Below the pieces are notes generated by a model. It was given only the letters and a program-made list of their open reading frames with translations, searched no databases and was not told the origin of the DNA. 64,000 nt of DNA, taken from contig CM000150.2 of assembly GCA_000004695.1 (NCBI GenBank), positions 3,744,001 to 3,808,000 of the forward strand, read 5' to 3'. The position numbers and the translations under genes are program-made. This document shows positions 3,132-53,645 of the stretch, piece after piece. The stretch's first letter is position 1; each line of letters starts with the position of its first letter. Origin of the DNA: Dictyostelium discoideum (Eukaryota).

Positions 3132-6705
<3,574 letters not shown>

Positions 6706-8725: not shown

Positions 8726-9285
8726 AAAAAATTTCTAATTAAAAAAAAAAAAAACAAAAAAAAAACAATATATTCAACATATTGTAAAAAAAAAAAAAAA
8801 AAAAAATATATAAATAAAATTAATAATCAAATTCTAAAAATATATTTTTTTATATTTTTTTATATCTTTTTTTTTTAAAAAAAATAAAATATTATAATAT
8901 CACTATTAAAATGTATATTCAATTTATTCAACCAAACTATTATACTGTTATTTTTTTATTTTTTTCCAAACACAATAATATTCAATAAGAAATTTTTTTA
9001 AAACTTTTTTTTATCTTTTGAAAATCATGTTAAAGGAACGAATTTTTAATGTTTATGAAAATAATATTTTCAGATGCAAGGAATCCATAAAAATCATATT
9101 TAGTTTCAAATATATTTAACAATTTCTTAGAGATATTTGTCCCATACCAAAATTACCATATTAATTTTAACCTACAAAGAGTTGTATGCATGCTGAAATC
9201 AATATGTTAAAAAATTAGCCACTTGAATTAATATGGCTGCCATTGAATTAATAAATACATAAATAAACTAATTAATAATAAATAA

Positions 9286-9357
<72 letters not shown>

Positions 9358-9900
9358 AAATAAAAAATTAAAAAATTAAAAAATTAAATTAGTAAAAATC
9401 AAACCATTTTTAATTTTATTTTTTTATTTATAATTTATTAATAAAAATAATTCATTTCATTTTTTGAACAATCGTCTAAGCTAAAAAACGTAAACCAAAA
9501 CGAACTTCCTTCAATTTTTTTTTATTTTTATTTTTTTTTTTTTTCCAAAGTAAAATTTTTTACTTTTTTTAATTATAATATTATTATAAAGATTTTTCAA
9601 ATATAATATATTATTATAAATTTTAAAACTTCAAAAAAATAAAAATAAAAAAGATTTTTTTTTTTTTTTTTAAAATAATTTAATATTGTATTTAATTTTT
9701 TTTATTTATTTTTTTATTTTTACAATCATTAGAGAACTATAAAAAAAATTAAAAAAAAATAAACATATACCAAAAAACTTTTTTTTTTTAATTTTTTTTT
9801 CCTTTTTTTGTTGACAGAAATACGTATATTTTTTTTTTAATTTAAATATTTTTATATTTTCCACTATATACACATGTTTAAATTTAATTTTTTTTTTTTC

Positions 9901-9939
<39 letters not shown>

Positions 9940-10164
9940 CTATTAACAAAATAATTTTTTTTCATCAAACAATTAATGATATTAGTAGAAAATTAATATC
10001 TATCTTTTTTTAATTTATTTATTTTTATTTATTTATTTATTTTTTATCTTTATAACTAATTTCAATAATAATAAATTTATTTAAATTTTTAATATTTTTA
10101 ATTATTCAATACACTTTTTTTAAATTTTTAATAATTTTAAATTTTTAATATTTTTATTAATATC

Positions 10165-10520
10165 GATTACATTGTAGTTGGTGGCGTCCATGCTGAGTAT
10201 GCAATAAGGGTAATGCTTTCAATTCTTGGCATTGAATTTGATGAAATTAAGAACAAACATCAAATGAAAATAATTAGAACCAAATTTCAAAAAATAATGG
10301 TTCAATTAAAATAATTATTTTTTATTTTACCAATCATCCCTCAGACACACACAGGGATCCAATAGTTGATATTATTAAATTTAGATTATTGATAGAATAC
10401 TTTAATAATAATTATAATAATAATAATGATAATAATATAATAGAATTTGATCATTCACTAATGAAACATTACTTTGGAGAAGCTTAATGTCATTGGAATG
10501 ATATTTATATCACAGCATAA
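10165..10520 (+). pseudogene. fragment (copy 1) of a three-copy repeated gene-like unit; it lacks the upstream and downstream parts of copies 2 and 3
   Basis: About 90% identical to 18085..18440 (DYIVVGGVHAEYAIRVMLSILGIEFDEIKNKHQMKIIRTKFQKNNGSIKIIIFYFTNHPSDTHRDPIVDIIKF...). Begins abruptly at gattacattgtagttgg. Confidence 0.5.
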
Positions 10521-11147
10521 AAAAAAAAAAAAAATAATAAAAAATAAAAAAAATTAAATAAAATAAAAAAAAAATATAATTTTAAAATCTCTAACCTTTA
10601 CTCTTTACTTTGGGTTTTCAAAAAAATGTATATGGGTGTGAAGTTCGAATAGTTTTAATTCTTTATTTAATCAATATCTTAAATTAATTTAAGGTACATA
10701 ATTAAAATAAATTTAATAAATAATAAATAATTATTTAACTTTAATTATTTTTTTTATTTACTACTATTTTTTATTTTAATTTTATTATTATTATTCTTTT
10801 TATTTGATCGAGTCCGATGATTCAATTAATTATCTTGATTCTTCACATGTTAATCCTTTTGTTAGACTAAGATCATATACATTTGAGAAATTGCCATTTA
10901 AATAAACTTGACCACCAGTTACTATAAATTTAAAGTTTTACAATATATACCAATTGCAATATCATTACAAATACAATTACCAACGTGATCATTACATTTA
11001 TCAAATGGTGAATATTCGACTGAACAAGGAGCTCTATAATAAAATTCAATATATTAATGTTGCACCATTTCCATCTTATAATTTAATTTGTTGATTACCT
11101 TAACCTGCACCTATTGTACATATGATTTGTGGTTTATTACTTGAGTG

Positions 11148-11243
11148 ACAATCAGTGGTGGTGATGTTATAATGTCTTGTGATTTTAATATTATAAATAT
11201 TTGAAAAATCACAAGACATTATAACATCACCACCACTGATTGT
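11148..11243. repeat. perfect inverted repeat: 39-bp stem (11148-11186 / 11205-11243) with an 18-nt loop
   Basis: Arm acaatcagtggtggtgatgttataatgtcttgtgatttt and its exact reverse complement aaaatcacaagacattataacatcaccaccactgattgt, verified base by base. Confidence 0.9.
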
Positions 11244-11249
11244 TGGTAT

Positions 11250-11830
11250 TGATACTGATGATATTTGCATTTAATTGTTGATGTTGTTATGTTGATGTGT
11301 ATAATAATGTTGTTAATGTTGTTGATGTATATTTATTTTATTTGGTGAGGTTGTAGTATGTTGATGTTGTTGGCGTTGTTGATGTTGTTGATGTTGTTGA
11401 TGTTGTTGATGTTGTTGATTTTGTTGATGTTGTTGATGTTGTTGGTGTTGTGGATTTTGTTGATTTTGTTGATGTTGTTGATTTTGTTGATGTTGTTGGT
11501 GTTGTTGATGTTGTTGATGTAATATATATATTGGTTATTATTTTATTTTATTTTATTTTATTGTTGTTGATGTTGTTGATGTTGTATATATATATTGGTT
11601 ATTATTTTATTTTATTTTATTTTATTTTATTTTATTTTATTTTATTTTATTTTATTTTATTTTATTTTATTTTATTTTATTTTGGTGTTGTTGATGTTGA
11701 TGTTGTTGATGTTGTATATATATATATATTGGTTATTATTTTATTTTATTTTATATTATTTTATTTTATTTTATTTTATTTTATTTTATTTTATTTTATT
11801 TTATTTTATTATATATATTACTATTATTTT
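11250..11830. repeat. compound satellite: (GTTGAT/GTTGTT)n minisatellite (about 11250-11520, 11680-11710) interleaved with (ATTTT)n blocks (11531-11660, 11736-11812)
   Basis: Direct reading. ORFs 11450..11836 and 11595..11849 are translation artefacts of these repeats. Confidence 0.9.
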
Positions 11831-12465
11831 ATTTAATTTTTTTATTTAATTTACATTTTGTACTATATAAAATGAGTTGACATAATATTCTAAAAGAGAA
11901 TACTAATTTTGTAAAAATTTATTTATATTAATTATTGAATATCCTATTATTTATTTATATTATATTTATTATTACTATGAAGAATTGAGTAACTAATTTT
12001 GGAAGAACCTCTTGGTCATTTATCCTCACCCTCGTTATTAATAATTTTTTTTTTTATAATTTTTTTTTTTATTATTTTCTTTTTTTTTTTTTTTTTGTAA
12101 TTGACCAATTTCCGAACCCATATTGAAATAAAATATAATCAAAAAAATAAAAAAATAAAAAAAATGTGCAAAGTGATTTATTATTTTAATTTAAAAAATA
12201 AAATAAAATAAAATAAAAATAATTAAACAAAAAATAAAAATGAATAATAAAAAATATTACATACATTCTGGTTTTTATTTTTTTGCAAAGTCGCAAACAA
12301 TATTTATATTTTCTTACCAAAAGTTAAAATAAATAAATTTATTAAACTAAGATTAAATATTCTTTATTTTTTAAATACATTAAAAAAAAATAAAAAAATT
12401 GTAATGTTTTTATAGTTTTTTTTATTAATGTTTTTTTTTTATTTTTATTTTTTAAACAAAACTTG

Positions 12466-12880
12466 TTAAGCCCATACAGTCCTTTTTTATTTTAAAAAAC
12501 AATTTGAAGTGAATGTGATAAAATTTTTTTTTTAAAAAAAAAACAAAACTTGAGATCAGCTTGTACAGTCTGTTTTAATAAAAAAACCTTGAGATGGCCC
12601 ATTTAAAAAAAAAAAAAAAAAAACTTAAAGGCCAGCCCTTGTAGTCCATTTTTTTTTTAAAAAAAAAAATACCTTGTATTAGCCCGGTTGGCACGAATAG
12701 ACCGTTCAGCCCATGTAGTCCTTTTTTTTTAAAAAAAAAATACCTTGTATTAGCCCGGTTGGTACTAATAGACCGTTAAGCCCATGTAGTCCATTTTTTT
12801 TTTAAAAAAATACAAATGCCTTGTATTAGCCTGGTTGGCACGAATAGACCCTTTAAAGGGATCATGGCTTATTATTGTAA
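12466..12880 (+). repeat. tandem array of about 7 units. Each is A-run + GC-rich 30-50-nt core (consensus taccttgtattagcccggttggcacgaatagaccgttcagcccatgtagtcc) + T9-10 run. Candidate small-RNA (Pol III-like) gene array or satellite
   Basis: Units end in GCCCATGTAGTCC / GCCCATACAGTCC / CAGCTTGTACAGTC followed by T-runs. Two near-identical full-length units lie at 12662-12730 and 12731-12800. This is locally the most GC-rich DNA in a 20% GC region. Confidence 0.5.
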
Positions 12881-13066
12881 TAATGAAGATGATTGTAATG
12901 ATAATGATGTTGGATAAATCTACAATAAATTTTTTTTATTATTTTAGACATTAAATAATTAAACCATCTTTTTAATTTTTATTATTTATTTTAATTATTT
13001 ATTTATTTTTTACTATTACTATTTTTATAACGATTGGAGAGAACTAAAACAAAAAAAAAAAAAACA

Positions 13067-13101
<35 letters not shown>

Positions 13102-13697
13102 TATTAGATATACTATAGTATATTCTTCATTGACCATATCTGTTTATAGTAGAAATTGAAATGTTGTGGATTTCGAAGTTCATCATTAGTCTAGAGATCT
13201 AATGTGGTGAATTTGGATGTTCAACACCGCTCCAGAGAAATTAAATATACATTAAATAAATAAAATTAAATCAATTATAAAACAAATTGTATTATTTAAG
13301 TCCTTCTAGAGTACCACTCCTGTTACATTTTATAAATAATAAACTTATGAAATTCTTGTTTAATTCTTGAATTATTTTATAGATGTATTAAATTAAAATT
13401 ATAAAAAAAAAAAGTTAATGAAATTTCCAGCTTTTTCCACTTTTTGCATTTTTTTATTTTTTTATTTTTACTCCAAAAAATCAAATAACCCCCAAATATT
13501 AATTGGTTGAATAATTTTTTATATGTTTACAATTTTATGTTTTATTTATTTATAATCAAGTTTTATATCTTTATGGTTCTTTTTTTATCTATTACTAAAC
13601 CTGAAATATCCACCATTATCCCTTTACCTTCAATTTTTATTGGGTTTATTACACACTTAAGAAAGAATAACATAAATTCCCTGTTAAATATATTTAT

Positions 13698-13698
<1 letters not shown>

Positions 13699-13728
<30 letters not shown>

Positions 13729-13762
13729 GAACAAATAATTAGAGAGAGAGAGAGAAAGAGAG
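13699..13762. repeat. (GTAA)8 microsatellite followed by (AG)n
   Basis: gtaagtaagtaagtaagtaagtaagtaagtga, then agagagagagagaaagagaga. Confidence 0.9.
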
Positions 13763-13798
13763 AATAAGAATACTTACATGTACTATGCCCGGGATAAT

Positions 13799-14745
13799 AC
13801 CTAAAAGAAGAGAATTAAATTTAGCCAGAAGATTTATTAAAAAAAATAATAATAATTAATAAGTCATACTTTTTTTTTCATTATTTATGTTAGTAATACA
13901 TTGGCTCACAGCAAAGAAAATATCACATTTTCAATACCATAAAAATTAAAATTCTTTTTTACTGTAACATTTAATTTTCTTAAAAATGAAATTTTTAATT
14001 TTTAATTTACTTTAAAGTTTCATTTTAATGGTCATTTTAATGGTAAATGTAATTTAAATTATATTATTAATTATATTACTAATTATAATTTAACTAATAT
14101 TAATTATAATATCATTTAAATAACATTTAAATGACATTTAATTTTTAATGGTATTTAAATGATATTAAAAATATCATTTAAATTACATTTTATTTTAAAT
14201 GTCATTTTAATGCTGGATTTTCTTTGCTGTGCTGTATTATTAATCTACCAATACAATATTCAATAGTATATTTTTTAAAAAAAAGTAAAAGAATAGGATT
14301 TTGGTAACCTACCTAAAAAGAAGAGAATTAAATTTAACCAGAACGCGCTGGAACAGCCTTTCTTAATAAGTACAGCTAAAGGTTTATTTAAAAAACAATA
14401 ATAAAAATTAATAGGTCATACTTTTTTTTATTATTTTTTATCACAGCAAAGAAAATTTCACATTTTAATACCATTTAAATTACATTTAAATGTTCCAGTG
14501 AAAATGAAATTTAAATCTAGTTTAAAGTTTCATTTTAATGGTCATTTTAATGGTAAATGTAATTTAAATAATATTAATTACAATTTAAATGACATTTAAT
14601 TTTTAATGGTATTTAAATGATATTAAAACCATTTAAACTGCATTTTATTTTAAATGTCATTTTAATGCTGGATTTTCTTTGCTGTTCTGCATTATTTAAT
14701 CTACCAATACAATATTAAATAGTTTATTTTTTTTTTAAAAAAATA
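13799..14745. repeat. two tandem copies (13799-14300, 14311-14745) of a roughly 450-500-bp foldback/MITE-like unit with internal inverted repeats
   Basis: Both copies start cctaaaagaagagaattaaattta(g/a)ccagaa. They contain cacagcaaagaaaat ... attttctttgctgtg inverted pairs (13907/14218 and 14442/14672). They also contain nested palindromes (aatgatattaaaaatatcatt; taaatgacattta / taaatgtcattta). Confidence 0.6.
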
Positions 14746-14935
14746 CTTACCAACTGGTGATAAAAAGAATATACATAAAAGTAATAAAAGAATTGTACCA
14801 CATGCACCCATTTTATATTTATTTTTTAGTTTTTTTTTATGTGAAAGTTTTTTTTAATTTAAAAATAGAATTTAATATGTTATAACTAATGATTGAAAAA
14901 AAAAAAAAAAAAAAATTATATTTGTTGGTTTAATC

Positions 14936-14966
<31 letters not shown>

Positions 14967-15698
14967 AATAAATAAATAAAAAGAAAAAAAAAAAAAAAAG
15001 GGGTGCGGTTTAGTTAAAAAAGTCAAAATCTAATTATTTGAAAAATTTTAATATGGGGTTAAAACACCGTTAACTTAAAGGATGACCAATATAATTCATA
15101 ATAATATAACCAAACATTAATCCTTTTTTTAGAAAATCCACTAAATATTTTTTTTTTTATTTTTTTATTTTTTTTTTTTAATATTTTTAATTTTTTTTGA
15201 TTTTTTTTTTTTTGATTTGGAAAAAAAGACTTTCAACTATTCTTTAAATCCCAGTGCTTTTCCGCTAATAAAATGAATATTCATTATTATAAAAATAACC
15301 TCAAATTTAAATTTTTTTTTTTTTTTTAATTTTATGTTTTTTATTTTTAATTTTTTTTTTTTTTTTTTTAAAATGATTTAATTATTTGAATAAAAATTTC
15401 AGATTCTCTCTAAGTTTATTTTAATAAACCAAATTTCAAATTTTTTAGGCTTTATTTTATAAAAAAAGATTATATTTTAAAATTAATGGGTATTTTAAAT
15501 TTCAAAACACATTCACCAATTCAACACAACACAAATTATTTTTTATCATTAAAATAATAAAAAATAATTTGATGATAACACACAAATTTTTTTTTTTAAA
15601 TAATCAATTAAATATAAAATGAAAAAGTTTTGCTTTTTGGTGGTGTAATGTTTAAACACAATATTTGTTGATTTTTTATTTTTTTTTTTTTTTTGTTT

Positions 15699-15751
15699 TT
15701 TTATAAGGTTGGATATAAAAATTTGAAATTTTTATATCCAACCTTATAAAA
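15699..15751. repeat. perfect 53-bp palindrome (26-bp arms around a single central g at 15725)
   Basis: tttataaggttggatataaaaattt g aaatttttatatccaaccttataaa, verified base by base. Followed by a GC-enriched segment at 15760-15890. Confidence 0.9.
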
Positions 15752-16129
15752 TAACAACACTAAAGTGCGCTGGTTGGTTAGCAATGGCCTCGTTTAATTT
15801 CAAGTCATACATGTATGCATCAAAACAAAAAAATTTAAAAACTGATTGTCTGAAAATGTGATTCAGTTGCACGCATTTTTTTTCAAAAAAAAAAAACAAA
15901 AAAAAAGTTGAAAAAAAAATTAAAAAAAAAAAAAAAAATTCTTATAAAAGGGAAAAAAAAATAAATAAAATTTTTTAACGGTTTTTTTTTAAAAACTGCA
16001 AATAAAAATAAAATCTAGACTGTTTTGTGGTTATAATGAATATTTATTTATATTTCTTTGATTTTTTTTTTTTTAAATTTTTCTATATTTCCTCTTTTAA
16101 AAAAACTGGAAAAAACTGGAATAATTCAA

Positions 16130-16620
16130 ATTAGTTGGGTTTGGAGGGTAAAATAAAAAAAATTATGATTGGAGAAACCTCTCCCCCTTTTTTTAAAAAA
16201 GAGCGTAGGGGAGGGTAGTTTGTATGAGAAATTGAACTTTTCCACCCTTCTTTTGAAATTATTTAGTAAATATGTTTCGAATTGATAACTTTGTGATGCA
16301 ATTTTGAGATATGGTTTAATAGAAAAATTCCAGTATCCCAATGATATATTATTATTAAAATGGTAAAATTGCAAGGAAGGAAGGAACGTCACTCACCCCT
16401 TTTCTTTGAAAAAAAAAAGTTCCTCTTTTTGAAAAATTTTAGTAAAAGTAAAGTTTTGAACTGATACCATTGAGGTGCATTTATGCTAAATATATATTTA
16501 AATAGAAGAATTCTAGGGGAATCTAATGACATATTTCGCTTTTAGTGTTATGGTAAAATAAAAAATTATGGGGTAAGGACCTTCTGTAGTTTTCATGAGA
16601 AACTGCCCTTGTCCCCATTT
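16130..16620. repeat. degenerate tandem repeats of about 170 bp (at least 2.5 copies), with C-rich ends (ctctccccc, ccaccc, cactcacccc, ttgtcccc)
   Basis: Repeated ttgaaattatttagtaaa...ggtaaaat... blocks. ORF 16126..16392(-) is unlikely to be real. Confidence 0.55.
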
Positions 16621-16743
16621 TTTTTTTTTATTTAAAATTGGATATATAAATTTTTTATTTTTTTATTTTTATTTTTATTTTTTTATTGACAAAGACACTG
16701 ACATATCTGATATTTTCATTTTCATTTTTTTTTTTTCATTCTA

Positions 16744-16792
<49 letters not shown>

Positions 16793-17224
16793 CAACAATT
16801 TAATTTTAAAATGAATTTATTGATAAATAGAGCAATCAAAAATAAACAAAATGATATGAAAAATAAAAAAATTAATGTAATTATATATTTTTTTTAAATT
16901 TTTTTTTTTTTAACTAAAATTATTTTTTCAGAATTTAATTATTTTTCATTTTAACAACGAGAGGGAATATATTTAAATAAAATAATAGATATTAAAAAAA
17001 CCAAAAATTGGTTGAGTTGGAATATTTTTTATTTATTTTAATGTCAAATTTGAATGTTTGAATAAATAAAATTAAAAAAAAAAAAAAAAAAACAATTTAA
17101 TCAATTTTTTATTAGTTTTTATTTAAAATCTATTTTTTTTTAATAAAATATCTTCCCTACTCTTTTTTCTTTAAAATAAAAATAATTACAAAAAACATAT
17201 GTTTAAAAATTAAATTCTAAAAAT

Positions 17225-17272
<48 letters not shown>

Positions 17273-17759
17273 GGAAATTATAAGCCCACCAAGATTTTTT
17301 GAAACATATCAATAATAATTTTGTTTGAAATTTCAATCGAAAATATTATACTTTCATTTTAGTATCAGTGAATATTTTTACTTTATCAATCACCAATAAA
17401 TCCTCTTGGGTAGTGGATACAATTGGACAAGCTTTCACAATTAAAAAGTGCTTAGTCTCTACGCAATATTGGTGATATTTTTAAAATAGAAAACAATATT
17501 ATAATAGTTTTTTTATTTATAAGAAAAATAATTTAAAAAAAGAAAAATCAATCGATTTAGAATCAACAAAACTTTTATCATTAAAATATAATAATAATCC
17601 AATTAAAGGTTGGTTATAACGAGAAAGTATTCAATTTACTTTCGATAGATTGTTTATTAATTTTATAGTTTCAAATGGTGATCTAAATTTATTTTTGGAT
17701 TTCCATTCATAAGAGAAATGTGCAAAAACTTCATTTCAAATCTTAAATCCAAAACCTTT

Positions 17760-18760
17760 TCAACATTTTCATCTATCTTTGGTTATTTTCAAAATAATAA
17801 AAATAATAATAATAATAATAATAATAAATTAATATTAGTATACCAAATACCAAAAAGTACAAAGAATATACTTTTAGATAATAATGGTAGACAAGCATTC
17901 ACCATAAAATATTTTTTTCAATTTCTATAAATATATTGGTGATGTATATGATAGAGAAAACACAATCATAAGTCATTTATTAATTTTCATTCACAAATCA
18001 ATTTCTGGTGTTCATGAACCTATCAATGGTAACCATTTATATATTTTAATAATTGCTTTTTTATTTATAATTTAATTTTGCAGACGATTACGTTGTAGTT
18101 GGTGGCGTCCATGCCGAGTATGCAATAAGGGTAATTCTTTCAATTCTTGGCATTGAATTTGATGAAATTAAGAACAATCATCAAATGAAAATTATTAGAA
18201 CTAAATTTCAAAAAAATAATGGTTCAATTAAAATAATTATTTTTTATTTTACCAATCATCCCTCAGACACACACAGGGATCCAATAGTTGATATTATTAA
18301 ATTTATATTATTGGTAGAATACTTTAATAATAATAATTGCAATAATAATAATATTATTATAAAATTAGATCAATCACTGTTGAAATCATTTATCAAAAAT
18401 TATCAAATTTTGTTCAAAAACCAAGTAGTGGTTGTGTGATGATTTAATAAATCATATTAATTTTACTGATAATGATGAATGCAATCATAGTTTCGTATAT
18501 TCACCAATCATCAATTTTAACATTTTCGAATCAATTTTAAAACCAACAGATTCAAAAATAACAAGTATTGATGATTCAACTTCCAGTGATTACCAATTTT
18601 AAAAAATGGAATTTTTAAAATTTCATTCAATAATATTATAACTTCAATTAAAACAACTTCAAGCAAATCACCGTCAACTAAATGGAATAACAAAGCAATC
18701 AAATATCACCCAAATAATGAAACAAAGCTTGCTACCAATGCTATATCTAGCATTTGAATA
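17760..18760 (+). pseudogene. copy 2 of the repeated gene-like unit; disabled by a 1-bp insertion (ctataaatat vs tacaaatat) and a degenerate 3' part
   Basis: Shares the upstream block ...ttcaacattttcatc..., the core DDYVVVGGVHAEYAIRVILSILGIEFDEIKNNHQMKIIRTKFQKNNGSIKIIIFYF... and a decayed downstream part with copy 3 (23870-24998). The frame breaks relative to copy 3. Confidence 0.5.
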
Positions 18761-19158
18761 TTTAGCAACTTTTATTTCGCCATTTTGGTCTGTCGAAAGA
18801 TCTTTCGACAAATTAAAAGGGCAAAACAAAAGTTATCAACTATTCAAAGAATAGACATAGTATCGATGCAAATTTAACTTTAGTTGATCTTGTCAAATTA
18901 AATTAAATAATAAATAAAATAAAATAATTTGTTATTATTATAATTAAAAAAAAAAATAAAATATATTAAAATTTAATCAAATTATACCTTAATAATAAAA
19001 AAATAAAAAAAAAAAAAAGTCTACGAAATGTATTAAATCTACATAAAACCAATCGAGTATTGATTTGTAATAATATTTTTTTTTATTATATATATATAAT
19101 AGAGAATTTTCAAATATTGATATCTCTTTGTGATTTTTTTTTTTTTTTTAATAATAAT

Positions 19159-22206: not shown

Positions 22207-22797
22207 ATGGATCAGCCACAACAACAACAACAAAATCAAGTTATAGATAATCAAGGTAGTAGTAATAATAATAGTAGTAGTAATAATAATAATAATAATG
22301 GTGGAATTAAGCATAAAAAAAGATTTCAAGTTGAAAATGCAATAATGGGAATGATATTTTTTGGATTATCAATATTTTTAATAATTTATGGTATAGTTCA
22401 AATTGCAGTTGCAAGTGGTAAAGATGATATTTCATCACGTCATACATGGGCATTTACAGTTAATGGTATTTTCTGTTTAATTACTGGTTTTCATGGATTC
22501 TTTTTATTATTCCATAAAAGAGGTAGTGCAAAACATCATGTATTGTTAAATATTATATTGGTAGCTCAAGCATTCATTCTATTTATCATTTATTCAGCAT
22601 TGGTTCACCGTTATATCAATAGAGATTGTGGTGGTGAATTTTATCAAAATCCATATTGCGTTCACGATCATAAAGTTTATATAGGAATTTCATTGGCTAT
22701 ATTTTGGGCTGTCAATATCTTTACTTTACCATTCTCTTTAATTTGCTCAATTATTCATTTGAGAAATCAAAATCATCATAATGTTGAAAATGTTTAA
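22207..22797 (+). CDS. hypothetical small 4-TM membrane protein with a Gln/Asn-rich N-terminus
   Basis: A single 196-aa ORF with four hydrophobic segments (MIFFGLSIFLIIYGIV; FCLITGFHGFFLLF; LNIILVAQAFILFIIYSALV; IGISLAIFWAVNIFTLPFSLICSII). Confidence 0.5.
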   Translation: MDQPQQQQQNQVIDNQGSSNNNSSSNNNNNNGGIKHKKRFQVENAIMGMIFFGLSIFLIIYGIVQIAVASGKDDISSRHTWAFTVNGIFCLITGFHGFFLLFHKRGSAKHHVLLNIILVAQAFILFIIYSALVHRYINRDCGGEFYQNPYCVHDHKVYIGISLAIFWAVNIFTLPFSLICSIIHLRNQNHHNVENV

Positions 22798-23513
22798 ACG
22801 CACACACATACAACACAAATCACAAAGATAAATAAATCCTTTCAAATTCAATCGAATATATTTCTTTTTTTTTTTTTTTTTTATTTTAAAAAATTAAAAA
22901 ATTAAAAAATAAATATAAATAAAAATAAATTCAAAAATTTTTTTTTTTTTTTTTTCTTATTATTTTGTATAAATTTAATATGTTTTATTTTATTTTTGTT
23001 GATTAATTATAATTGTAAAAATATTAAATTGATTTGAAATTTTTAATTTAAATGACTGATGAATGTTTCAAAACTTTTATCATTGAATTAAAATATAATT
23101 ATATATTAAAGGCTGGATATATATTAAAAACTCTAATTGATTTTAATAGATTGAAAAATTAGATTATAATTTCTGATGGTGATTAAAGTTTAGTTGATAC
23201 TGAGTTGTGGTATACAAATATCACTAATGAATAGAACCTCAAAAAACAACCTTGTATAACACATATCAACACCAATTGAACTTTATTCTCCCAACAAAAA
23301 ATTAAAAATTCAATAAACAATCCATCAAAAGAAATTGCAATTTTTCCTCTATATCCAACCTTTAATATAATTGTTGCATATGGCAAAAGTTTTGTTGTTT
23401 CTAAAGCTATGATATTATTATTATTATTATTAATATTATTTTGTAAATATGAAAAAAAAAAAAAAAAAAAAAAATTTATTATTTTACAATAAATCATCTA
23501 TTTTTATAATAAA

Positions 23514-24998
23514 ATGTCAACCAATATAAATTTTAAAGACATGAGTTCTTATAAATATTTATCAAAACTTAAAGTTATTGATAAAGATTTTATAATTAAA
23601 TGTTTAAACATGGCGAGTAAAAAGGATGAACTTTCTTTAATTTTAGATTCAACAATAGATTTACCATTTAAGTTTAGTGATATTAGTATAACTGGTTGGA
23701 AATATAATGAAAAGATTCCATTTACATTGGATTACCAAAAATTTGACGAGTATACCATTTATCTACGTCGATTAGCCATAAATCTCCATATGCAACCAAG
23801 AATTTAATAAACAACTACTCCATTCATTAGAGAACTTATAAAAGAATCTATTTTAAACTTAAAATCAAATAAATTTTCAACATTTTCATCAGTTTTTCAA
23901 AGTTTTCATCATAATTCCAATAAAAGGATAATTTTTTTAAACCAATCAAAAAAATAAAGATTGGATGAAATTATATTACTATGGTTACGAACAATCTTCA
24001 GTTATAAAAGAAGTATTTGAATTTTACAAATATATTGGTGATGAATATGAAAGAGAAAACACAATAGTAATGGATCTTTTATTTTTTATTGGTGGAACCA
24101 ACTCTGGTATTCAAGATTCAATCAATGGTAATCACATTTACATTTTAATGATAGTTTTTTTATTCTTAATAGAATTGGCCGATTATTTTATCGTGGTTGG
24201 TGGTGCTCACGCTCAATAAGCAATTAAGTTAATATTATCAATTTTGAAAATTGAAGTTGAACAAATTCAAAACAATCATAAAATGAAATTTATAAGAATC
24301 AAATTTCAAAGCAATAATGGTTCATTTAAATCAATCATTTTTTATTTCTCCAGCTATCCATCAGATTTAAGTATAGATCCAGTCATTGATATCATTAAAT
24401 TTAGATTATTGGTAGAATACTTGATTTATCAAATAATAATAATAATCAAAATAATAATAATAATATCATTGAATTTGAAGAATCATTAATTAATTCAGTA
24501 TATCAAAGTTTATTTCAATTTGTACAAAAACCAAGTATTAGTTGCGTTAATTGTGGTGCTTATGAAAGTGTAACCAATGATTGCTGTCACAGATTCGTAT
24601 ATTCACCAATCTTTGAATTTAATATTTTCAAATCAATTTAAAAATCAACACCTACAACTACTACAACAACAACAACTGATAATTCAATTTCTAATCAATT
24701 GGATTCAACAATATTAAAAAATGGTATTTTTAAAATTTCATTCAATAACCTTGAAAAACCATCACCAAAAGAACAATTTTTAGCACAATATCCAAGATTA
24801 AAGATTTCATCAATTTTTAATACAATCAAATCTTCATTTCAATCAACAGATAATAAGCATTATTGTGGTTATTTAAAATGTAATTCAAGTTTTGATGATG
24901 TTGACAGGTTATCACTCCACATGGTGAAAGAACATCCATGTGATGAAACACCACCTGGTTCAAAATTCTTTATTATTAGAGGTGGATCAAACAATTGA
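23514..24998 (+). pseudogene. copy 3 (the most complete) of the repeated gene-like unit; its 3' part encodes a C2H2-type zinc finger (HYCGYLKCNSSFDDVDRLSLHMVKEH). It is interrupted by an in-frame TAA (tat in copy 2) and a frameshift
   Basis: ORFs 23514..23807, 23965..24219, 24244..24489 and 24699..24998 are collinear with copies 1 and 2. The stop inside ...VVGGAHAQ*AIKLILSIL... sits exactly where copy 2 has Tyr. A further frame slip and stop lie near 24425-24640. It may be a functional gene in other strains. Confidence 0.45.
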
Positions 24999-25161
24999 AC
25001 AACAAAGATTAAATCAACCAACTGAAGAAATTATTTATTTTTTTTTTTTTTTTATTCAAATAATTATTGCTTTTTTTTTTTTTTTTTTCAAGGTTTTTAG
25101 TATAATTAATTAATAAATTTATTTTTATTTTTTTATTTTTTTTATCAATTATTAATAAAAT

Positions 25162-26134
25162 TTATTGATAATCATATGATTTTGTACGAGGAGCACGACA
25201 AATACGAATAATTAAAAACAAGGCGAAAAGCATACAAATAAATTCGATGACGCCAATTGAAACAGCAGCAGCACCAACCAAATAAAGATTTGAAGAGATT
25301 TTTGAAGAGATTACACTATCACAAGTATCGGTATATTTTGGAATACCTTTTGAATCCTTTGGACAAAGTAAAGGGTTTCTAGAACTGGTTGAATTCCAAT
25401 AGCAACATTTTAAGAAATTTTCTAATTTCAAAATTGTAGAATTCTTTGGACCATTTGATACATCTTCCCAAGCATTTCCAATTTGTTTAACAACATCATC
25501 ATTATGTAATGTTAAAGCTTTACCACCAACACCAATTAATGCAACTAAAATAATTAACATTAACATTGTATAAATTACCAAACCAACCAATTTCTCTTTT
25601 CCTGCCACAAAACAGCCAATAACTGTTAATATAACAAAGAAAATACCAATAACCAATACACCTGCTGGTGCTCCAGTTGTTAAATTTGAAAGTGCAGCTG
25701 AAGCTTTTGAAACTTTTGTAAAATCTTTAAAATTTGAAAAAAAGCTAACACCAATACTACCAATAATTACTTTTTTTTTTAAAAAATAAAAAAAAGAAAT
25801 AAAAGAAGTTTTTAAAAAAGAAAAATAAAAAATAAAAAAAAGAAAAATAAAAAAATTAATAATTAATATTTTTGAATAAATATAATAATAAATTTTATTA
25901 ACTAATAGTTCTTACCTAAAACTAAACCAAGAACCTATAATAATAATCAAAAAAAAAAAAAAAAAAATAAAAAAAAAATAAAAAAAAAAAAAAATAAAAA
26001 AAAAAATTAATAATAACAATTTATTTAATAAAATAATTAAATATAAAGCTTACCCAAAGAATAGTATTAAATGCAATTAATGGAACTTTAAGATATCTTG
26101 GAGTATTAGGAATTAAATTTGTTGTATCAACCAT
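25162..26134 (-). CDS. tetraspanin family protein (paralogue 4); exons 26134..26054, 25934..25916, 25769..25162
   Basis: Exon 1 MVDTTNLIPNTPRYLKVPLIAFNTILW then GTAAGC. A 19-nt exon 2 encodes VLGLVL. Exon 3 has four TM segments, a CCYW motif in the large extracellular loop and the family tail IRICRAPRTKSYDYQ. Phases verified. Confidence 0.8.
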
Positions 26135-45219: not shown

Positions 45220-46079
45220 TTTTAATTATTTATTATAATTATTTATAGTTACTTGGGTAAATTTTATATTTTTTGATAGATTTTTTTTTTTTTTTTCAAT
45301 TAATTTATTATTAACTAAATTTTTAAATATATATATATATATATATATTTTTAATTTAGACTTGTTTTAATAGTTGTTGGATCAGTTTGTATAAGTTTTT
45401 TTTCAAATTTTAAAGAGTTTACCAAAGAATCAGGATATAAGAATGCATTATCGAATCTTACAACCAGTGCACCAACTGGTGTTTTAGTTATTGGTATATT
45501 TTTCATTTTATTAACACTTGTTGGTTGCTTTGTAGCATATAAAGAGAAATTGGTTGGTTTGGTTTTATATACAATGTTAATGCTAATTTTATTGGTTGTA
45601 TTAATTGGTATTGGTGGTAAAGCTTTAACATTAGATAAAGAGGATGCTGTATCTATTATTGGTACATCATGGGTACAAATTTCAAACTCTTTAAAGAATT
45701 CCACAATTACAAAATTGGAAGATTTTTTAGAATGTTGTTGTTGGTCCGAATCTTATTCCAATCAAACCTATAAAGACCTTTGTCCAAAAGATGATGATGG
45801 AAATATTAAATATGAAGATACCTATTGCGAAGGTATCTTTACTAAACAAGTTTCAAGTAAATTAGTTTTAGGTATTTATCATTCTATTTTTATTACTATT
45901 ATTGTGTTGAATATTTTTTTATTATTTTTTTTTTTGAAAATACTAATTTATTTAATATTTTAGTTGGTATTGCTGGTGTAGTTATTGGATGTATTGAATT
46001 TGTTGCAATGGCATTATCACTCTTTTTAATCATTCGTATTTGTCGTTCTCCACGTAGTAGAGCCTATGATCAATATTAA
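45005..46079 (+). CDS. tetraspanin family protein (paralogue 1); exons 45005..45085, about 45360/45361..45871, 45964..46079
   Basis: Exon 1 MVNTRDFLPKTTHYLKVPIIGLNAILW then GTAAGT. Exon 2 LVLIVVGSVCISFFSNFKEF...CCCWSE...DLCPKDDDG...KLVL-g|GTATTT. Exon 3 VGIAGVVIGCIEFVAMALSLFLIIRICRSPRSRAYDQY*. The exon 1/2 junction does not restore the frame with the only canonical AG (45358-59), which is 1 nt out of phase; see findings. Confidence 0.65.
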
Positions 46080-51203: not shown

Positions 51204-52160
51204 ATGGTAGATACATCAAATCTTTTACCACAAACACCAAGACTTTTAAAAGTCCCATTAATTATTTTAAATATTATCCTTTGGGTATGTATTTTAATTT
51301 TTTTTTTTTTTTTTTTTTAAAACAAAAACTAAAAATAAAAAAAAAAAAAAAGATAATTGCAATATTAAAAAATAAATAAATAAATAAAAAAAATAAAATA
51401 AAAAAATATATTTTAATTAATAATATCTTAAAAAAAAAAAAAAAAAAATCTTTAGATTCTTGGTTTAGTTTTAGTTATTGTTGGTGGTATTTGTGTTAGC
51501 TTTTTATCAAATTTCAAAGATTTCACAAAAGCCAGTGATGCTAAATCAGCTCTTTCAAATCTTACAACCAGTATTCCAGCTGGTGTTTTAGTTATTGGTA
51601 TCCTCTTTGTAATTTTCACTGTTGTTGGTTGTTTCGTTGCGTAAGTATACCAATAATAATAAATTATTATTATTATTATTATTATTTATTTTTATTAACA
51701 TTTTATAAAATAATATAGTTACAAAGAGAAATTAGTTGGTTTAGTAATCTATTGTGCAGTAATGTTAATTTTATTAGTTATTTTAATTGGTGTTGGTGGT
51801 AAAGCTATAACATTACACAATGATGATATCATTAATGAAGTTGGTGGTGCTTGGGAACATGTTGCCAATGGTACAAAGAATAGCACCCTCACTCGTCTCG
51901 AAAATTTCTTAAAATGTTGTAAATGGTCAAACGTCTCAATAGACTCTTCAGATTTATGTCCAAAAGATGGTGATAAAATTAAATATGAAGGTCACTATTG
52001 TGGTGAAGCTTTAAGTGACCAATTCAGTTCAAAAATCTATGCTGTTGGTGCTGCTGGTTTAGCCATTGGTATCATTGAACTCGTTGCCATCCTTTTCTCA
52101 TTATTCTTAATTATTCGTATTTGTCGTTCACCAAGAACTCGTTCATATGATCAATATTAA
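51204..52160 (+). CDS. tetraspanin family protein (paralogue 2); exons 51204..51284, 51456..51640, 51719..52160
   Basis: MVDTSNLLPQTPRLLKVPLIILNIILW|GTATGT; ILGLVLVIVGGICVSFLSNFKDF...VVGCFVA(gc|GTAAGT); t+ YKEKLVGLVIYCAVML...KCCKW...DLCPKDGDK...IRICRSPRTRSYDQY*. All phases verified. Confidence 0.8.
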
Positions 52161-52606
52161 ATAAATAAATAAAACAAAATAAATAAATAATAGTAATAAA
52201 ATCAAAAATTTAAAAATATCAACAAAATTAATTTTTTTTTTTTTTTTTTTTTCTAAAAATAGAAAAAAATAAATAAATAAAAAATTTAAAAAAATAAAAA
52301 AAAAATACAAATATGCATCAAAACTGTTTAATTCTCTTTTTTTTTTTTTTTTTATTTATTTTTTATGAGAACCAAAACCTTGTTTTTTGATTTTTTTTTT
52401 TTCAGCCTGTGGTTTCGATTTCTTTAAATAAACGTTTATTTTTTTTAATTTTTTTTTTTTTTTTTTTTAATTTTTTTTATTTTTTAATTTTTTTTTTTTA
52501 TTCACACTGTTTTTTTACATGTGAAACTATTGACCACAAATATTTAAAAAAAAAAAAAAAAAAATTAAAAACTATAATAAAATTGTAATATATATATAAA
52601 TAAAAT

Positions 52607-52930: not shown

Positions 52931-53645
52931 TTAAAGATTTTAATTTATGAATATAATAATAAATTTTATTATTATTAATTATTAATTATAAATTATTATT
53001 ATTATTATTATTATTATTATTTAGTTATTAGGATTAGTACTTGTTATTATTGGTGGAATTTGTGTTGGATTTTTTTCAAGATTTAAAGAGTTACAAGAAG
53101 TAGGAGGAGTTTCAGAATCAATAAAGAGTATATCGGTATCATTACCAGCTGGTGTATTAAGTATTGGTATATTCTTTATGGTATTAACAGTAGCAGGATG
53201 TATCGTAGCTTATAAAGAGAAAATGGTAGGATTGGTATTCTACACAATATTGATGTTGGTTTTATTAGTTGTTTTAATTGGTATTGGTGGTGAAGCATTA
53301 ACTTACCATAATGCTGATATCGGTATTGAAATCGAAGATAATTGGAAAAACATCTCATATTCAAATCAAAGTGTTGTAATTAAAAAATTGGAACAATTCT
53401 TTGAATGTTGTTGTTTTGATGAAAGTGATCTAAAATTAAATTGTACTGCATTATGTCCACAAGATGATCAAAAAAATATATTATATAATGGTACTTTTTG
53501 TTATGATGTAATATTTGGTGCTGTAAATTCGAAATTGTATTTAGTTGGTAGTGCTGGTGTTGCAATTGGTGTGATTGAATTGGTTTCATTAATGTTTGCT
53601 TTATTTTTAATTGTTAGATTATATAAATCAAATTCTTATAGATAA
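52607..53645 (+). CDS. tetraspanin family protein (paralogue 3); exons 52607..52646, 52813..52844, 53025..53645
   Basis: MVEYLPSTPRYLK(g|GTATGA); tt+ PLIILNVILW|GTAAAG; LLGLVLVIIGGICVGFFSRFKE...ECCCFDE...ALCPQDDQ...VRLYKSNSYR*. Phases verified. Lies directly downstream of paralogue 2. Confidence 0.8.

What the first reader, a model, noticed from the sequence alone, without database searches (positions are those of the whole stretch)
13799..14745. Tandem pair of roughly 450-500-bp foldback units with nested inverted repeats (MITE-like)
Two direct copies share their starts (cctaaaagaagagaattaaattta...) and the internal inverted pairs cacagcaaagaaaat/attttctttgctgtg. They also share multiple smaller palindromes (aatgatattaaaaatatcatt; taaatgacattta/taaatgtcattta). 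There is no coding capacity. The structure resembles non-autonomous DNA transposons or foldback elements, or a locally duplicated replication or structural element. (GTAA)8 and (AG)n microsatellites lie immediately upstream.
Basis: seen in the sequence. Interest (0 to 1): 0.5.

Follow-up and report, generated by a model that had tools for sequence, protein, structure and literature searches.

The report
New intron born by tandem duplication
The two "foldback units" are two sister introns, plus the small exon between them, of a tiny membrane-protein gene on the opposite strand in Dictyostelium discoideum. The second intron arose recently when a roughly 510-bp piece of the gene was duplicated in tandem, giving a clean natural example of how a new intron can be born.

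Summary
The repeat is real. Two direct copies start 513 nt apart and are 89% identical over 388 aligned columns. Each holds a foldback closed by the 15-nt pair CACAGCAAAGAAAAT/ATTTTCTTTGCTGTG.

It is not a non-coding MITE pair. It lies inside the minus-strand four-exon gene DDB_G0270978, a 56-aa Pmp3/YqaE proteolipid. Unit 2 is intron 1 (375 nt). The "shared start" of unit 2 is exon 2 (63 nt). Unit 1 is intron 2 (512 nt), which is a decayed copy of intron 1 plus exon 2.

Both splice sites of intron 2 come from the same exonic AG|GT (codons Leu-Gly): TTTTTAG|GTAGGT in the upstream copy and TTTTAG|GTATT in the downstream copy. [quoted passage not shown]

None of the six relatives' genes examined has intron 2. 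They are from D. citrinum, D. purpureum and D. firmibasis (three genes), plus one from a metagenome contig. Four of them have intron 1, and in none does it contain the foldback. There the exon reads straight through TTAGGT (TTGGT in D. purpureum).

The foldback core (243 and 323 nt) is an older, D. discoideum-specific insertion in a normal-sized intron. Whether it came from a MITE or arose in place is unresolved, because the genome-wide copy number could not be tested.

Verdict: a new member of a known but rarely documented kind, of moderate interest.

The parts
14751..14811 (-). Exon 1 of DDB_G0270978 (Pmp3 family). It encodes MGACGTILLLLLCIFFLSPV plus the first base of codon 21.
   Evidence: Hand splice. 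The product is 100% identical to P0001/XP_646355.2. Exon 1 matches D. citrinum at 58 of 61 nt.
14376..14750 (-). It consists of a 65-nt 5' flank, the foldback core A and a 67-nt 3' flank.
   Evidence: An intron at the same position and phase is found in D. citrinum (114 nt), D. firmibasis (87 and about 150 nt) and D. purpureum (about 76 nt), none with a foldback.
14443..14685 (-). Foldback core A (243 nt). A 14-bp closing stem (ACAGCAAAGAAAAU/AUUUUCUUUGCUGU) encloses two sub-hairpins.
14313..14375 (-). Exon 2 (63 nt, codons 21-41, AVLIKKGCSSAFWLNLILFFL plus the G of Gly42). It ends in TTTTTAG|GT, which is the 5' splice site of intron 2.
   Evidence: tblastn E = 1.5e-12.
13801..14312 (-). It is a tandem duplicate of intron 1 plus exon 2 and is specific to D. 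discoideum.
   Evidence: Alignments. It is absent from all six homologous genes examined.
13908..14230 (-). Foldback core B (323 nt), closed by a 15-bp perfect stem. It carries 52-, 16-, 8- and 3-nt blocks that core A lacks.
13801..13830 (-). Decayed copy of the 3' half of exon 2 (TTCTGGCTAAATTTAATTCTCTTCTTTTAG). It now serves as the polypyrimidine tract and AG acceptor of intron 2. The 37 nt that held the copy's own acceptor and first 32 exon bases are deleted, and one T is lost.
   Evidence: (FWLNLILFF at 13830-13804).
13778..13800 (-). Exon 3 (a 23-nt micro-exon, GT ATT ATC CCG GGC ATA GTA CAT). It is contiguous with exon 2 in all relatives.
13681..13777 (-). Intron 3 (97 nt). It is shared with D. 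citrinum and so is older than intron 2.
13657..13680 (-). Exon 4 (GIYVILS plus the stop codon).

Best explanation
The region is the interior of a minus-strand protein-coding gene, DDB_G0270978. It encodes a 56-aa Pmp3/YqaE proteolipid in Dictyostelium discoideum AX4 chromosome 1.

**Shown**
- Unit 2 is intron 1, and unit 1 is intron 2. Exon 2 (63 nt) lies between them.
- Intron 2 is a tandem duplicate of intron 1 plus exon 2.
- The 5' GT and 3' AG of intron 2 are the two copies of one exonic AG|GT (TTA-GGT, Leu41-Gly42). Removing intron 2 takes out exactly one duplication unit and restores the ancestral reading frame.
- Relatives lack intron 2 and read straight through this site.
- Inside the downstream copy the redundant signals have decayed. 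The copy's 3' splice site and first 32 exon bases are gone (a 37-nt deletion). There is a 1-nt frameshift. The sequence where a duplicated 5' splice site would lie is unrecognisable.
- The foldback core sits at the same position in both copies. It is missing from intron 1 of D. citrinum, D. firmibasis and D. purpureum.

**Inferred order of events in the D. discoideum lineage after the split from D. citrinum**
1. A palindromic insertion of roughly 250-320 nt entered an ordinary intron 1 of about 115-130 nt.
2. A segment of about 510 bp, running from the exon 1/intron 1 boundary to just past AGGTA in exon 2, was duplicated in tandem. This created intron 2 by the Rogers 1989 mechanism.
3. The inner splice signals decayed.

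**Inferred function**
The sequence is simply spliced out. The foldbacks are predicted to fold locally in the pre-mRNA. Excluding the cores leaves 132 and 189 nt of flanking intron, which is near the organism's normal intron size. This may be why such long introns are tolerated.
For: **Gene model**
- The four canonical-site exons splice to a 56-aa protein identical to XP_646355.2.
- The protein matches Pfam PF01679 end to end, E = 6e-17.

**Duplication**
- BLASTN between the units gives E = 2e-78. They are 89% identical over 388 columns, and the homology extends into exon 2.
- Junction sequences were read directly.

**Polarity**
- D. citrinum (L102): intron 1 is 114 nt without a foldback, the exon is contiguous through TTATTAGGTATT, and intron 3 is shared.
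- D. firmibasis, two tandem genes: one short intron each, both with contiguous TTTTAGGTATT.
- D. firmibasis third paralogue P0004, D. purpureum and the metagenome contig L002: none has intron 2.

**Orthology with D. citrinum**
- The promoter plus exon 1 is 72% identical over 728 nt.
- Between-copy divergence is 11%, less than this 28%. The duplication is therefore younger than the species split.

**Selection on the spliced ORF**
- There are 15 synonymous and 4 non-synonymous codon differences against D. citrinum, including codons on both sides of intron 2.

**Ancestral intron sequence in the downstream copy**
- D. citrinum's intron begins gttagTATTCTTTTAC. That 11-mer is kept in the downstream copy at intron 2 positions 18-28.

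**Folding**
- z = -9.2 and -5.6.
- In the whole 1155-nt pre-mRNA each foldback pairs within its own intron (120 and 149 pairs). The end-to-end graph distance falls from 375 to 46 and from 512 to 93.
- The mean Dictyostelium intron is 142 nt (PMC3946582).

**Model and known cases**
- PMC4974935 and PMC3265369.
Against: - No transcript data could be consulted. Splicing of intron 2 rests on the curated annotation, canonical sites, ORF conservation and synonymous-biased divergence.
- The first 17 nt of intron 2 (GTAGGTTACCAAAATCC) cannot be assigned confidently to exon 1 or to filler. The left breakpoint is therefore only approximate.
- The gene has also been relocated and inverted relative to both relatives. 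The history is more complex than a single clean duplication.
- The origin of the foldback core is unresolved.
- The structural benefit for splicing is a prediction from two sequences, with no informative covariation.
Confidence: 0.88

Rival explanations
1. Two independent insertions of a MITE or foldback transposon landed next to each other.
For: - Each unit has terminal inverted repeats: 15 perfect bp, extending to 40-44 nt at 70-78% complementarity.
- Each unit is AT-rich with no ORF of its own and a strong fold.
Against: - Homology between the units continues 50-100 nt beyond both inverted-repeat termini, into intron flanks and into 30 nt of exon 2.
- The flanks on the two sides are the same in both copies, as expected for one insertion that was then duplicated.
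- No target-site duplication was found.
- There is no other copy in the window or in about 68 kb from relatives.
Confidence: 0.03
2. Sub-hypothesis about the core only. The 243/323-nt foldback is a MITE-like DNA element that inserted once into intron 1 of the D. discoideum lineage and was then carried along by the duplication.
For: - It is a discrete insertion relative to the D. citrinum, D. firmibasis and D. purpureum introns.
- It has a unique G+C-containing 15-bp terminal inverted repeat.
- Removing it leaves an intron of normal size (132 nt).
- D. discoideum is reported to have a repetitive element, thug-S, of which multicopy miRNA loci form part (PMC6161686).
Against: - No TSD is recognisable, and alignment of the empty site is ambiguous.
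- No second copy was found in 64 kb.
- The structure is a branched set of sub-palindromes, not a simple two-arm foldback.
- The interior is built from one short motif.
- The metagenome scan for the terminal inverted repeat returned only single, unrelated hits.
Confidence: 0.35
3. Sub-hypothesis about the core only. The foldback arose in place, by tandem and inverted micro-duplications of a palindromic motif (CATTTWAATG) within intron 1. It would be a palindromic minisatellite, or the product of replication template switching, and not a mobile element.
For: - Ten of the 11 CATTTWAATG sites in the window lie in the two units.
- TRF finds periods of 11, 12, 17, 28 and 48-49 nt inside the units.
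- The two copies differ mainly by blocks of 3-52 nt, typical of array instability.
- The locus sits in a region with several rearrangements.
Against: - The 15-bp terminal pair CACAGCAAAGAAAAT is not made of the motif and has no counterpart in the D. citrinum intron.
- No intermediate stage is seen in any relative.
Confidence: 0.35
4. The hairpins are functional RNAs. They might be intronic miRNA or siRNA precursors. Alternatively, as two near-identical foldbacks flanking a 63-nt frame-preserving exon, they might regulate exon-2 skipping or back-splicing.
For: - The folds are very stable.
- D. discoideum does make miRNAs from intronic hairpins (PMC6161686).
- Both introns are phase 1 and exon 2 is 63 nt, so skipping it would keep the frame (read).
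- The closing stem and first sub-hairpin are identical in both copies.
Against: - The two known intronic miRNA loci are in other genes, DDB_G0293106 and DDB_G0284713.
- Rfam gives no hit at gathering thresholds, and only one weak chance-level match (E = 0.57) elsewhere in the region.
- The structure is branched rather than a single miRNA-like hairpin.
- The element is absent from all relatives, so no conserved role exists.
- In the full pre-mRNA fold each foldback pairs within its own intron.
Confidence: 0.08
5. The gene was broken by the duplication and is a pseudogene. The four-exon model would then be an annotation construct.
For: - It requires a 23-nt micro-exon and unusually long introns.
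- No transcript evidence could be checked here.
- The gene has moved from its ancestral position.
Against: - All eight splice-site dinucleotides are canonical, and there is no stop or frameshift in any used exon.
- The full-length Pfam match covers profile positions 2-49 of 49.
- Codon differences against D. citrinum are 15 synonymous to 4 non-synonymous.
- Damage is confined to the redundant inner copy.
- 565 bp of upstream sequence moved with the gene.
Confidence: 0.05

Closest known systems
[quoted passage not shown] The model is Rogers 1989. Documented cases are vertebrate ATP2A1 (Hellsten et al. 2011, PMC3265369), fission-yeast SPOG_01682 and SOCG_00815, and potato RdRp (Ma et al. 2016, PMC4974935).
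   Same: - One exonic AG|GT is present twice after the duplication and supplies the new intron's GT and AG.
- The new intron equals one duplication unit.
- The protein is unchanged.
- The intron is absent in close relatives, and its source sequence is identifiable.
   Different: - The duplicated unit here contains a whole pre-existing intron (with its foldback) plus 63 nt of exon, not exon sequence only. The new intron is therefore 512 nt and carries decayed internal splice signals.
- Unlike the potato case, both splice sites come from the same exonic AGGT and not from the parental intron's acceptor.
- The polypyrimidine tract is supplied by Leu/Phe codons (CTCTTCTTTTAG).
- No such case was found for Dictyostelium in the searchable literature.
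MITEs and foldback elements. In Dictyostelium the named candidates are thug-S/T, DDT-S and the Tdd family, which I recall from memory and could not compare by sequence.
   Same: The core is short, AT-rich and non-coding, has terminal inverted repeats, folds strongly, and is present or absent between sister species.
   Different: - No TSD was found.
- No second locus was found in the sequence available.
- The core is internally a branched set of motif-based palindromes.
- The pair of units is explained by host-gene duplication, not by transposition.
Introners, which are transposon-derived introns. I recall Huff et al. 2016 and Gozashti et al. 2022 from memory. PMC7789003 was listed but not read.
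   Same: An inverted-repeat element lies inside a recently changed intron-exon structure.
   Different: The foldback lies about 65 nt from either splice site, inside an older intron, and supplies no splice site. The new intron's sites come from duplicated exon sequence.
Intronic miRNA hairpins of D. discoideum, mir-1180 and mir-7102 (Liao et al. 2018, PMC6161686).
   Same: A stable hairpin in the sense strand of an intron of a protein-coding gene.
   Different: - This is a different gene and chromosome position.
- The fold is branched.
- No small-RNA evidence is available.
Intra-intron stems that shorten long introns in budding yeast. I recall Goguel and Rosbash 1993 and Rogic et al. 2008 from memory.
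   Same: A closing stem brings the 5' splice site and the branch/3' region closer together in an organism whose introns are normally short.
   Different: This is purely a prediction here. No mutational or covariation support exists, and the structure may be a tolerated passenger.

Membership tests
Intron created by tandem genomic duplication (Rogers model) | The intron is absent at the orthologous position in close relatives and outgroups. | tested here: met
   Intron 2 is absent in D. citrinum, D. firmibasis x3, D. purpureum and metagenome contig L002.
Intron created by tandem genomic duplication (Rogers model) | The intron sequence is a recognisable tandem duplicate of the adjacent gene segment. 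| tested here: met
   Intron 2 against intron 1 plus exon 2 gives E = 2e-78 and 89% identity over 388 columns.
Intron created by tandem genomic duplication (Rogers model) | The 5' GT and 3' AG derive from the two copies of one exonic AGGT. | tested here: met
   TTCTTTTTAG|GTAGG at 14313/14312 and TTCTTTTAG|GTATT at 13801/13800. The contiguous TTAGGT is seen in D. citrinum, D. firmibasis and L002.
Intron created by tandem genomic duplication (Rogers model) | The spliced product is unchanged relative to the pre-duplication gene. | tested here: met
   The conceptual product is 56 aa, collinear with and 93% identical to the corrected D. citrinum protein, with no insertion at the junction.
Intron created by tandem genomic duplication (Rogers model) | The new intron is actually removed in vivo. 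| not testable with these tools
   Only indirect support is available: the RefSeq/dictyBase model XP_646355.2 and synonymous-biased divergence.
MITE / foldback DNA transposon | Terminal inverted repeats. | tested here: met
   15 perfect bp, extending to 40-44 nt at 70-78% complementarity.
MITE / foldback DNA transposon | A target-site duplication flanks the element. | tested here: inconclusive
   No direct repeat is seen at the termini in either copy. The empty-site alignment to the D. citrinum intron is ambiguous in this AT-rich sequence.
MITE / foldback DNA transposon | Multiple dispersed copies in the genome. | not testable with these tools
   No copy was found elsewhere in the 64-kb window, in 68 kb from three relatives or among 97 metagenome hits. 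The D. discoideum genome itself could not be searched.
MITE / foldback DNA transposon | The repeat unit ends at the inverted-repeat termini. | tested here: not met
   For the pair of units, homology continues through both flanks and into exon 2.
Pmp3 / YqaE (UPF0057) proteolipid gene | Full-length match to PF01679 above the curated cut-off. | tested here: met
   61.8 bits against a cut-off of 22.9, covering profile positions 2-49 of 49.
Dictyostelium intronic miRNA precursor | A hairpin giving discrete DrnB-dependent 21-nt 5p/3p pairs. | not testable with these tools
No Rfam family matches.

The most novel reading that the evidence does not exclude
The foldback core may be an uncatalogued palindromic element of D. 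discoideum, either mobile or fragile. On this reading its arrival destabilised the locus and triggered both the 510-bp tandem duplication and the inverted relocation of the gene. Two near-identical copies now flank a 63-nt frame-preserving exon. They might therefore modulate exon-2 skipping (giving a 35-aa single-helix isoform), promote back-splicing, or feed the small-RNA pathway.
Probability: 0.1. Interest if true: 0.65.

Novelty: new member of a known kind. Interest (0 to 1): 0.42.

Why it matters
Well-supported cases of recently gained spliceosomal introns with an identified source sequence are few (PMC4974935), so the mechanisms of intron gain are argued from a handful of examples.

This locus adds a particularly legible example in a model organism:
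- Both copies of the AGGT are still readable.
- The parental intron is next door.
- Three outgroup species fix the polarity of the change.
- The decay of the redundant inner splice signals can be read base by base.

It also shows that a duplication spanning a whole intron can create a second, larger intron without changing the protein.

In practical terms, the region should not be annotated as a transposon pair. The D. citrinum orthologue's annotation (127 aa) is also wrong.

Tried and rejected
- **Rfam.** A scan of the whole window at gathering thresholds found nothing. A scan of 13600-14850 at E <= 1 gave only a chance mir-971 match, E = 0.57.
- **Permissive BLASTN.** With +1/-1 scoring the units hit hundreds of roughly 60%-identity AT-rich stretches. 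This was uninformative noise. Standard scoring leaves only the two units.
- **Paralogue search.** tblastn for a second Pmp3 gene in the window found none.
- **Locus look-ups.** An exact-protein look-up of the D. discoideum locus found nothing on record. The wider D. firmibasis flank was obtained instead by re-fetching P0002 with a 10-kb flank.
- **Metagenome scan.** The terminal-repeat pattern ACAGCAAAGAAAATNNNNCATT gave 97 single hits, none with a partner arm. The best of them (L023) is unrelated on inspection.
- **Literature.** The gene ID gave no papers. The arm sequences appear only in unrelated papers. The thug-S/T searches returned only papers that mention thug-S in passing; I did not read them for its sequence.
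- **Alternative exon.** I considered that copy B's exon fragment might be an alternative or mutually exclusive exon. I rejected this because it lacks an acceptor, lacks its first 32 nt and is frameshifted.
- **Exon 1 origin of the start of intron 2.** I considered that the first 17 nt of intron 2 derive from exon 1. The resemblance is suggestive (TTACCA versus TTATCACCA; the motif ATTCTTTTA is repeated three times nearby), but it cannot be distinguished from chance in this composition.
- **Target-site duplication.** A search using D. citrinum as the empty site gave two incompatible alignments of similar quality.
Full report
**1. What is in the sequence**

The window has about 20% G+C. The gene product recovered below is from Dictyostelium discoideum AX4, on a 4,923,596-bp contig.

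- The two "starts" lie at 13803-13830 and 14316-14343 and match at 27 of 28 positions, 513 nt apart.
- The units align over their whole length, BLASTN E = 2e-78. They are 89% identical over 388 ungapped columns, with nine indels of 1-52 nt.
- The 15-mer CACAGCAAAGAAAAT occurs four times in 64 kb (at up to 2 mismatches), exactly as the two inverted pairs. Shuffles give 0.45 expected.
- Each unit folds far better than shuffled sequence, with z = -9.2 and -5.6.
- The smaller palindromes come from a short motif, CATTTWAATG. Ten of its 11 occurrences in the window are in the two units.
- The (AGTA)n microsatellite is confirmed, and the (AG)n run can be read.

**2. The region lies inside a gene on the other strand**

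Reading the minus strand gives ATG...CCAGTTG|GTAAGT at 14811-14751. Three further segments follow, all bounded by canonical AG and GT.

Splicing 14811-14751, 14375-14313, 13800-13778 and 13680-13657 gives a 171-nt ORF. Its 56-aa product is MGACGTILLLLLCIFFLSPVAVLIKKGCSSAFWLNLILFFLGIIPGIVHGIYVILS.
- It matches Pfam PF01679 (Pmp3) end to end, E = 6e-17.
- It is 100% identical to "hypothetical protein DDB_G0270978", XP_646355.2.

The 5' end of unit 2 on the plus strand is exon 2 (63 nt). Unit 1 is intron 2 (512 nt). The microsatellites lie in intron 3.

The motif "cctaaaagaagagaattaaattta" is the reverse complement of the codons ...LNLILFFL plus the splice junction. The statement "no coding capacity" is wrong.

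**3. Intron 2 is a duplicate of intron 1 plus exon 2**

In gene orientation, homology starts within about 30 nt of the 5' end of each intron. It runs through the 5' flank, the foldback and the 3' flank, then continues into exon 2.
- Copy A reads ...GCGTTCTGGTTAAATTTAATTCTCTTCTTTTTAG|GTAGGT.
- Copy B reads ...ATC-TTCTGGCTAAATTTAATTCTCTTC-TTTTAG|GTATTATCC.

The 5' splice site of intron 2 is the GT of copy A's AGGT. Its 3' splice site is the AG of copy B's AGGT. Removing the intron removes exactly one duplication unit and rejoins TTA-G|GT-ATT (Leu41-Gly42-Ile43).

This is the geometry proposed by Rogers (1989) and reproduced experimentally for ATP2A2 (PMC3265369; summarised in PMC4974935).

Copy B's own redundant signals are damaged:
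- A 37-nt deletion removed its acceptor and its first 32 exon bases.
- One T is missing from the T5 run. tblastn shows FWLNLILFF followed by a frameshift.
- The place where a duplicated donor would lie now reads AAATCC.

Copy B still keeps TATTCTTTTAC, the sequence that follows the donor in the D. citrinum intron (gttagTATTCTTTTAC). The left breakpoint was therefore at or just upstream of the exon 1/intron 1 boundary. The first 17 nt of intron 2 cannot be assigned with confidence.

**4. Polarity: gain in D. discoideum**

| Gene | Intron 1 | Intron 2 | Intron 3 |
|---|---|---|---|
| D. firmibasis, two tandem genes (P0043, P0002) | short (about 150 and 87 nt), same position and phase, no foldback | absent; second exon reads through ...TTTTAGGTATTATT... 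| absent |
| D. firmibasis, third paralogue (P0004) | absent | absent | one intron, further downstream |
| D. citrinum | 114 nt, no foldback | absent; contiguous TTATTAGGTATTATACC | present, same site as D. discoideum |
| D. purpureum | about 76 nt, no foldback | absent | present, 1 nt offset |
| Metagenome contig L002 (AT-rich, probably a dictyostelid) | absent | absent | absent |

The D. citrinum gene was reached through the 90% cluster of the query. Its 127-aa annotation is a mis-splice.

D. citrinum is the orthologue:
- The corrected proteins are 93% identical.
- The two genes share intron 3.
- Their promoter plus exon 1 is 72% identical over 728 nt.

The 11% divergence between the two copies is well below that 28%. 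The duplication therefore post-dates the species split. Codon differences between the two species are 15 synonymous to 4 non-synonymous, on both sides of intron 2. This argues that the spliced ORF has stayed under selection.

**5. The foldback core**

Intron 1 splits into a 65-nt 5' flank, a 243-nt core and a 67-nt 3' flank. Intron 2 splits into 82, 323 and 107 nt.

Without the cores the introns would be 132 and 189 nt. The Dictyostelium mean is 142 nt (PMC3946582), and the relatives have 76-150 nt. The core is therefore an insertion into an ordinary intron. It is present in both copies at the same place, so it is older than the duplication.

Its structure:
- A 14-15-bp closing stem is followed by a 5-bp extension.
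- Two or three sub-hairpins follow, forming a branched junction rather than one long hairpin.
- With only two sequences there is no usable covariation.
- In a fold of the whole 1155-nt pre-mRNA, each core pairs within its own intron. The structure-graph distance between intron ends falls from 375 to 46 and from 512 to 93.

I infer, but have not shown, that this compaction is why the long introns are tolerated.

**6. Origin of the core: unresolved**

For a MITE-like origin:
- The termini are discrete and contain G+C.
- The core is absent from the empty site in three species.

Against:
- No TSD was found, and two equally good empty-site alignments exist.
- No other copy exists in the window, in 68 kb of relatives or among 97 single-arm metagenome hits.
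- The interior is built from one motif, with TRF periods of 11-49 nt. The indel pattern is typical of unstable arrays.

The D. discoideum genome itself is not searchable with these tools, so copy number, the key test, remains open. The core is not one of the two known intronic miRNA loci of D. discoideum (PMC6161686 and its supplement). It matches no Rfam family.

**7. Context**

In D. firmibasis and D. citrinum the gene lies between a 189/193-aa membrane-protein gene and a tetraspanin gene. In D. discoideum that slot (22797-25156) has no Pmp3 sequence.

Instead, the gene with about 600 bp of upstream sequence sits inverted at 13657-15414. This is inside a 10-kb stretch (8.7-19.1 kb) that has no counterpart in the relatives' loci.

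The locus has therefore undergone relocation as well as internal duplication. Whether these events are linked is unknown.

**8. Verdict**

- The interpretation as a pair of non-coding MITE-like elements is wrong for the pair and untested for the core.
- The best-supported account is a recently gained spliceosomal intron made by tandem duplication of an intron-plus-exon segment. Both splice sites come from one duplicated exonic AGGT.
- This mechanism is known, with few documented natural examples. The literature searches here found no mention of this gene and no Dictyostelium case in the intron-gain literature retrieved.
- Novelty: a new member of a known kind. Interest: moderate.

Noticed in passing
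window 13657-15414 versus 22797-25156; L004 9257-10255; L102 9436-10406: The Pmp3 gene is relocated and inverted in D. discoideum. In D. firmibasis and D. citrinum it lies between the 189/193-aa membrane-protein gene and the tetraspanin gene, a slot that is empty of Pmp3 in the window. Window 8878-13657 and 15414-19074 have no counterpart in the relatives' loci.
   Followed up: partly
L102 10001-11311 (D. citrinum, KAN0033918.1 / P0044): The 127-aa annotation misses intron 3 (L102 about 10261-10382) and runs into spurious downstream exons. The correct product is the 56-aa MGACGTILLLLLCIFFLSPLAVLIKKGCSGAFWLNLILFLLGIIPGIIHGIYVILS.
   Followed up: yes
window 13681-13777; L102 about 10261-10382; L103 about 3226-3294: Intron 3, which holds the (AG)n and (AGTA)n microsatellites, is shared with D. 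citrinum. In D. purpureum it lies 1 nt away (phase 1 instead of phase 0). It is absent from both tandem D. firmibasis genes. This indicates either intron loss or sliding.
   Followed up: partly
window 12634-12850: A 71-bp tandem repeat of 2.9 copies, 89% matching. Each unit has a T10/A11 palindromic centre flanked by G+C-richer sequence. It lies about 800 bp downstream of the Pmp3 stop codon, and its nature is unknown.
   Followed up: no
L102 3-5111 and 16848-21311 versus window 40928-29188 and 8782-5446: D. citrinum carries a large inversion relative to D. discoideum and D. firmibasis, with breakpoints next to the Pmp3 region. A roughly 150-bp sequence (window 8737-8878) occurs at L102 11691-11840 and, overlapping, at L102 about 16848 in the opposite orientation.
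   Followed up: no
window about 25156-26134, 45394-45753, 51471-52269, 53085-53630: There are several tetraspanin-like paralogues in the window, seen as tblastx and blastn matches to the D. firmibasis and D. citrinum tetraspanin gene.
   Followed up: no
L004 9257-9578 and 10001-10255: D. firmibasis has two tandem Pmp3 genes at this locus (RB653_006892 and RB653_006891). D. citrinum has one there, and D. discoideum has one in the window, at a different position.
   Followed up: partly
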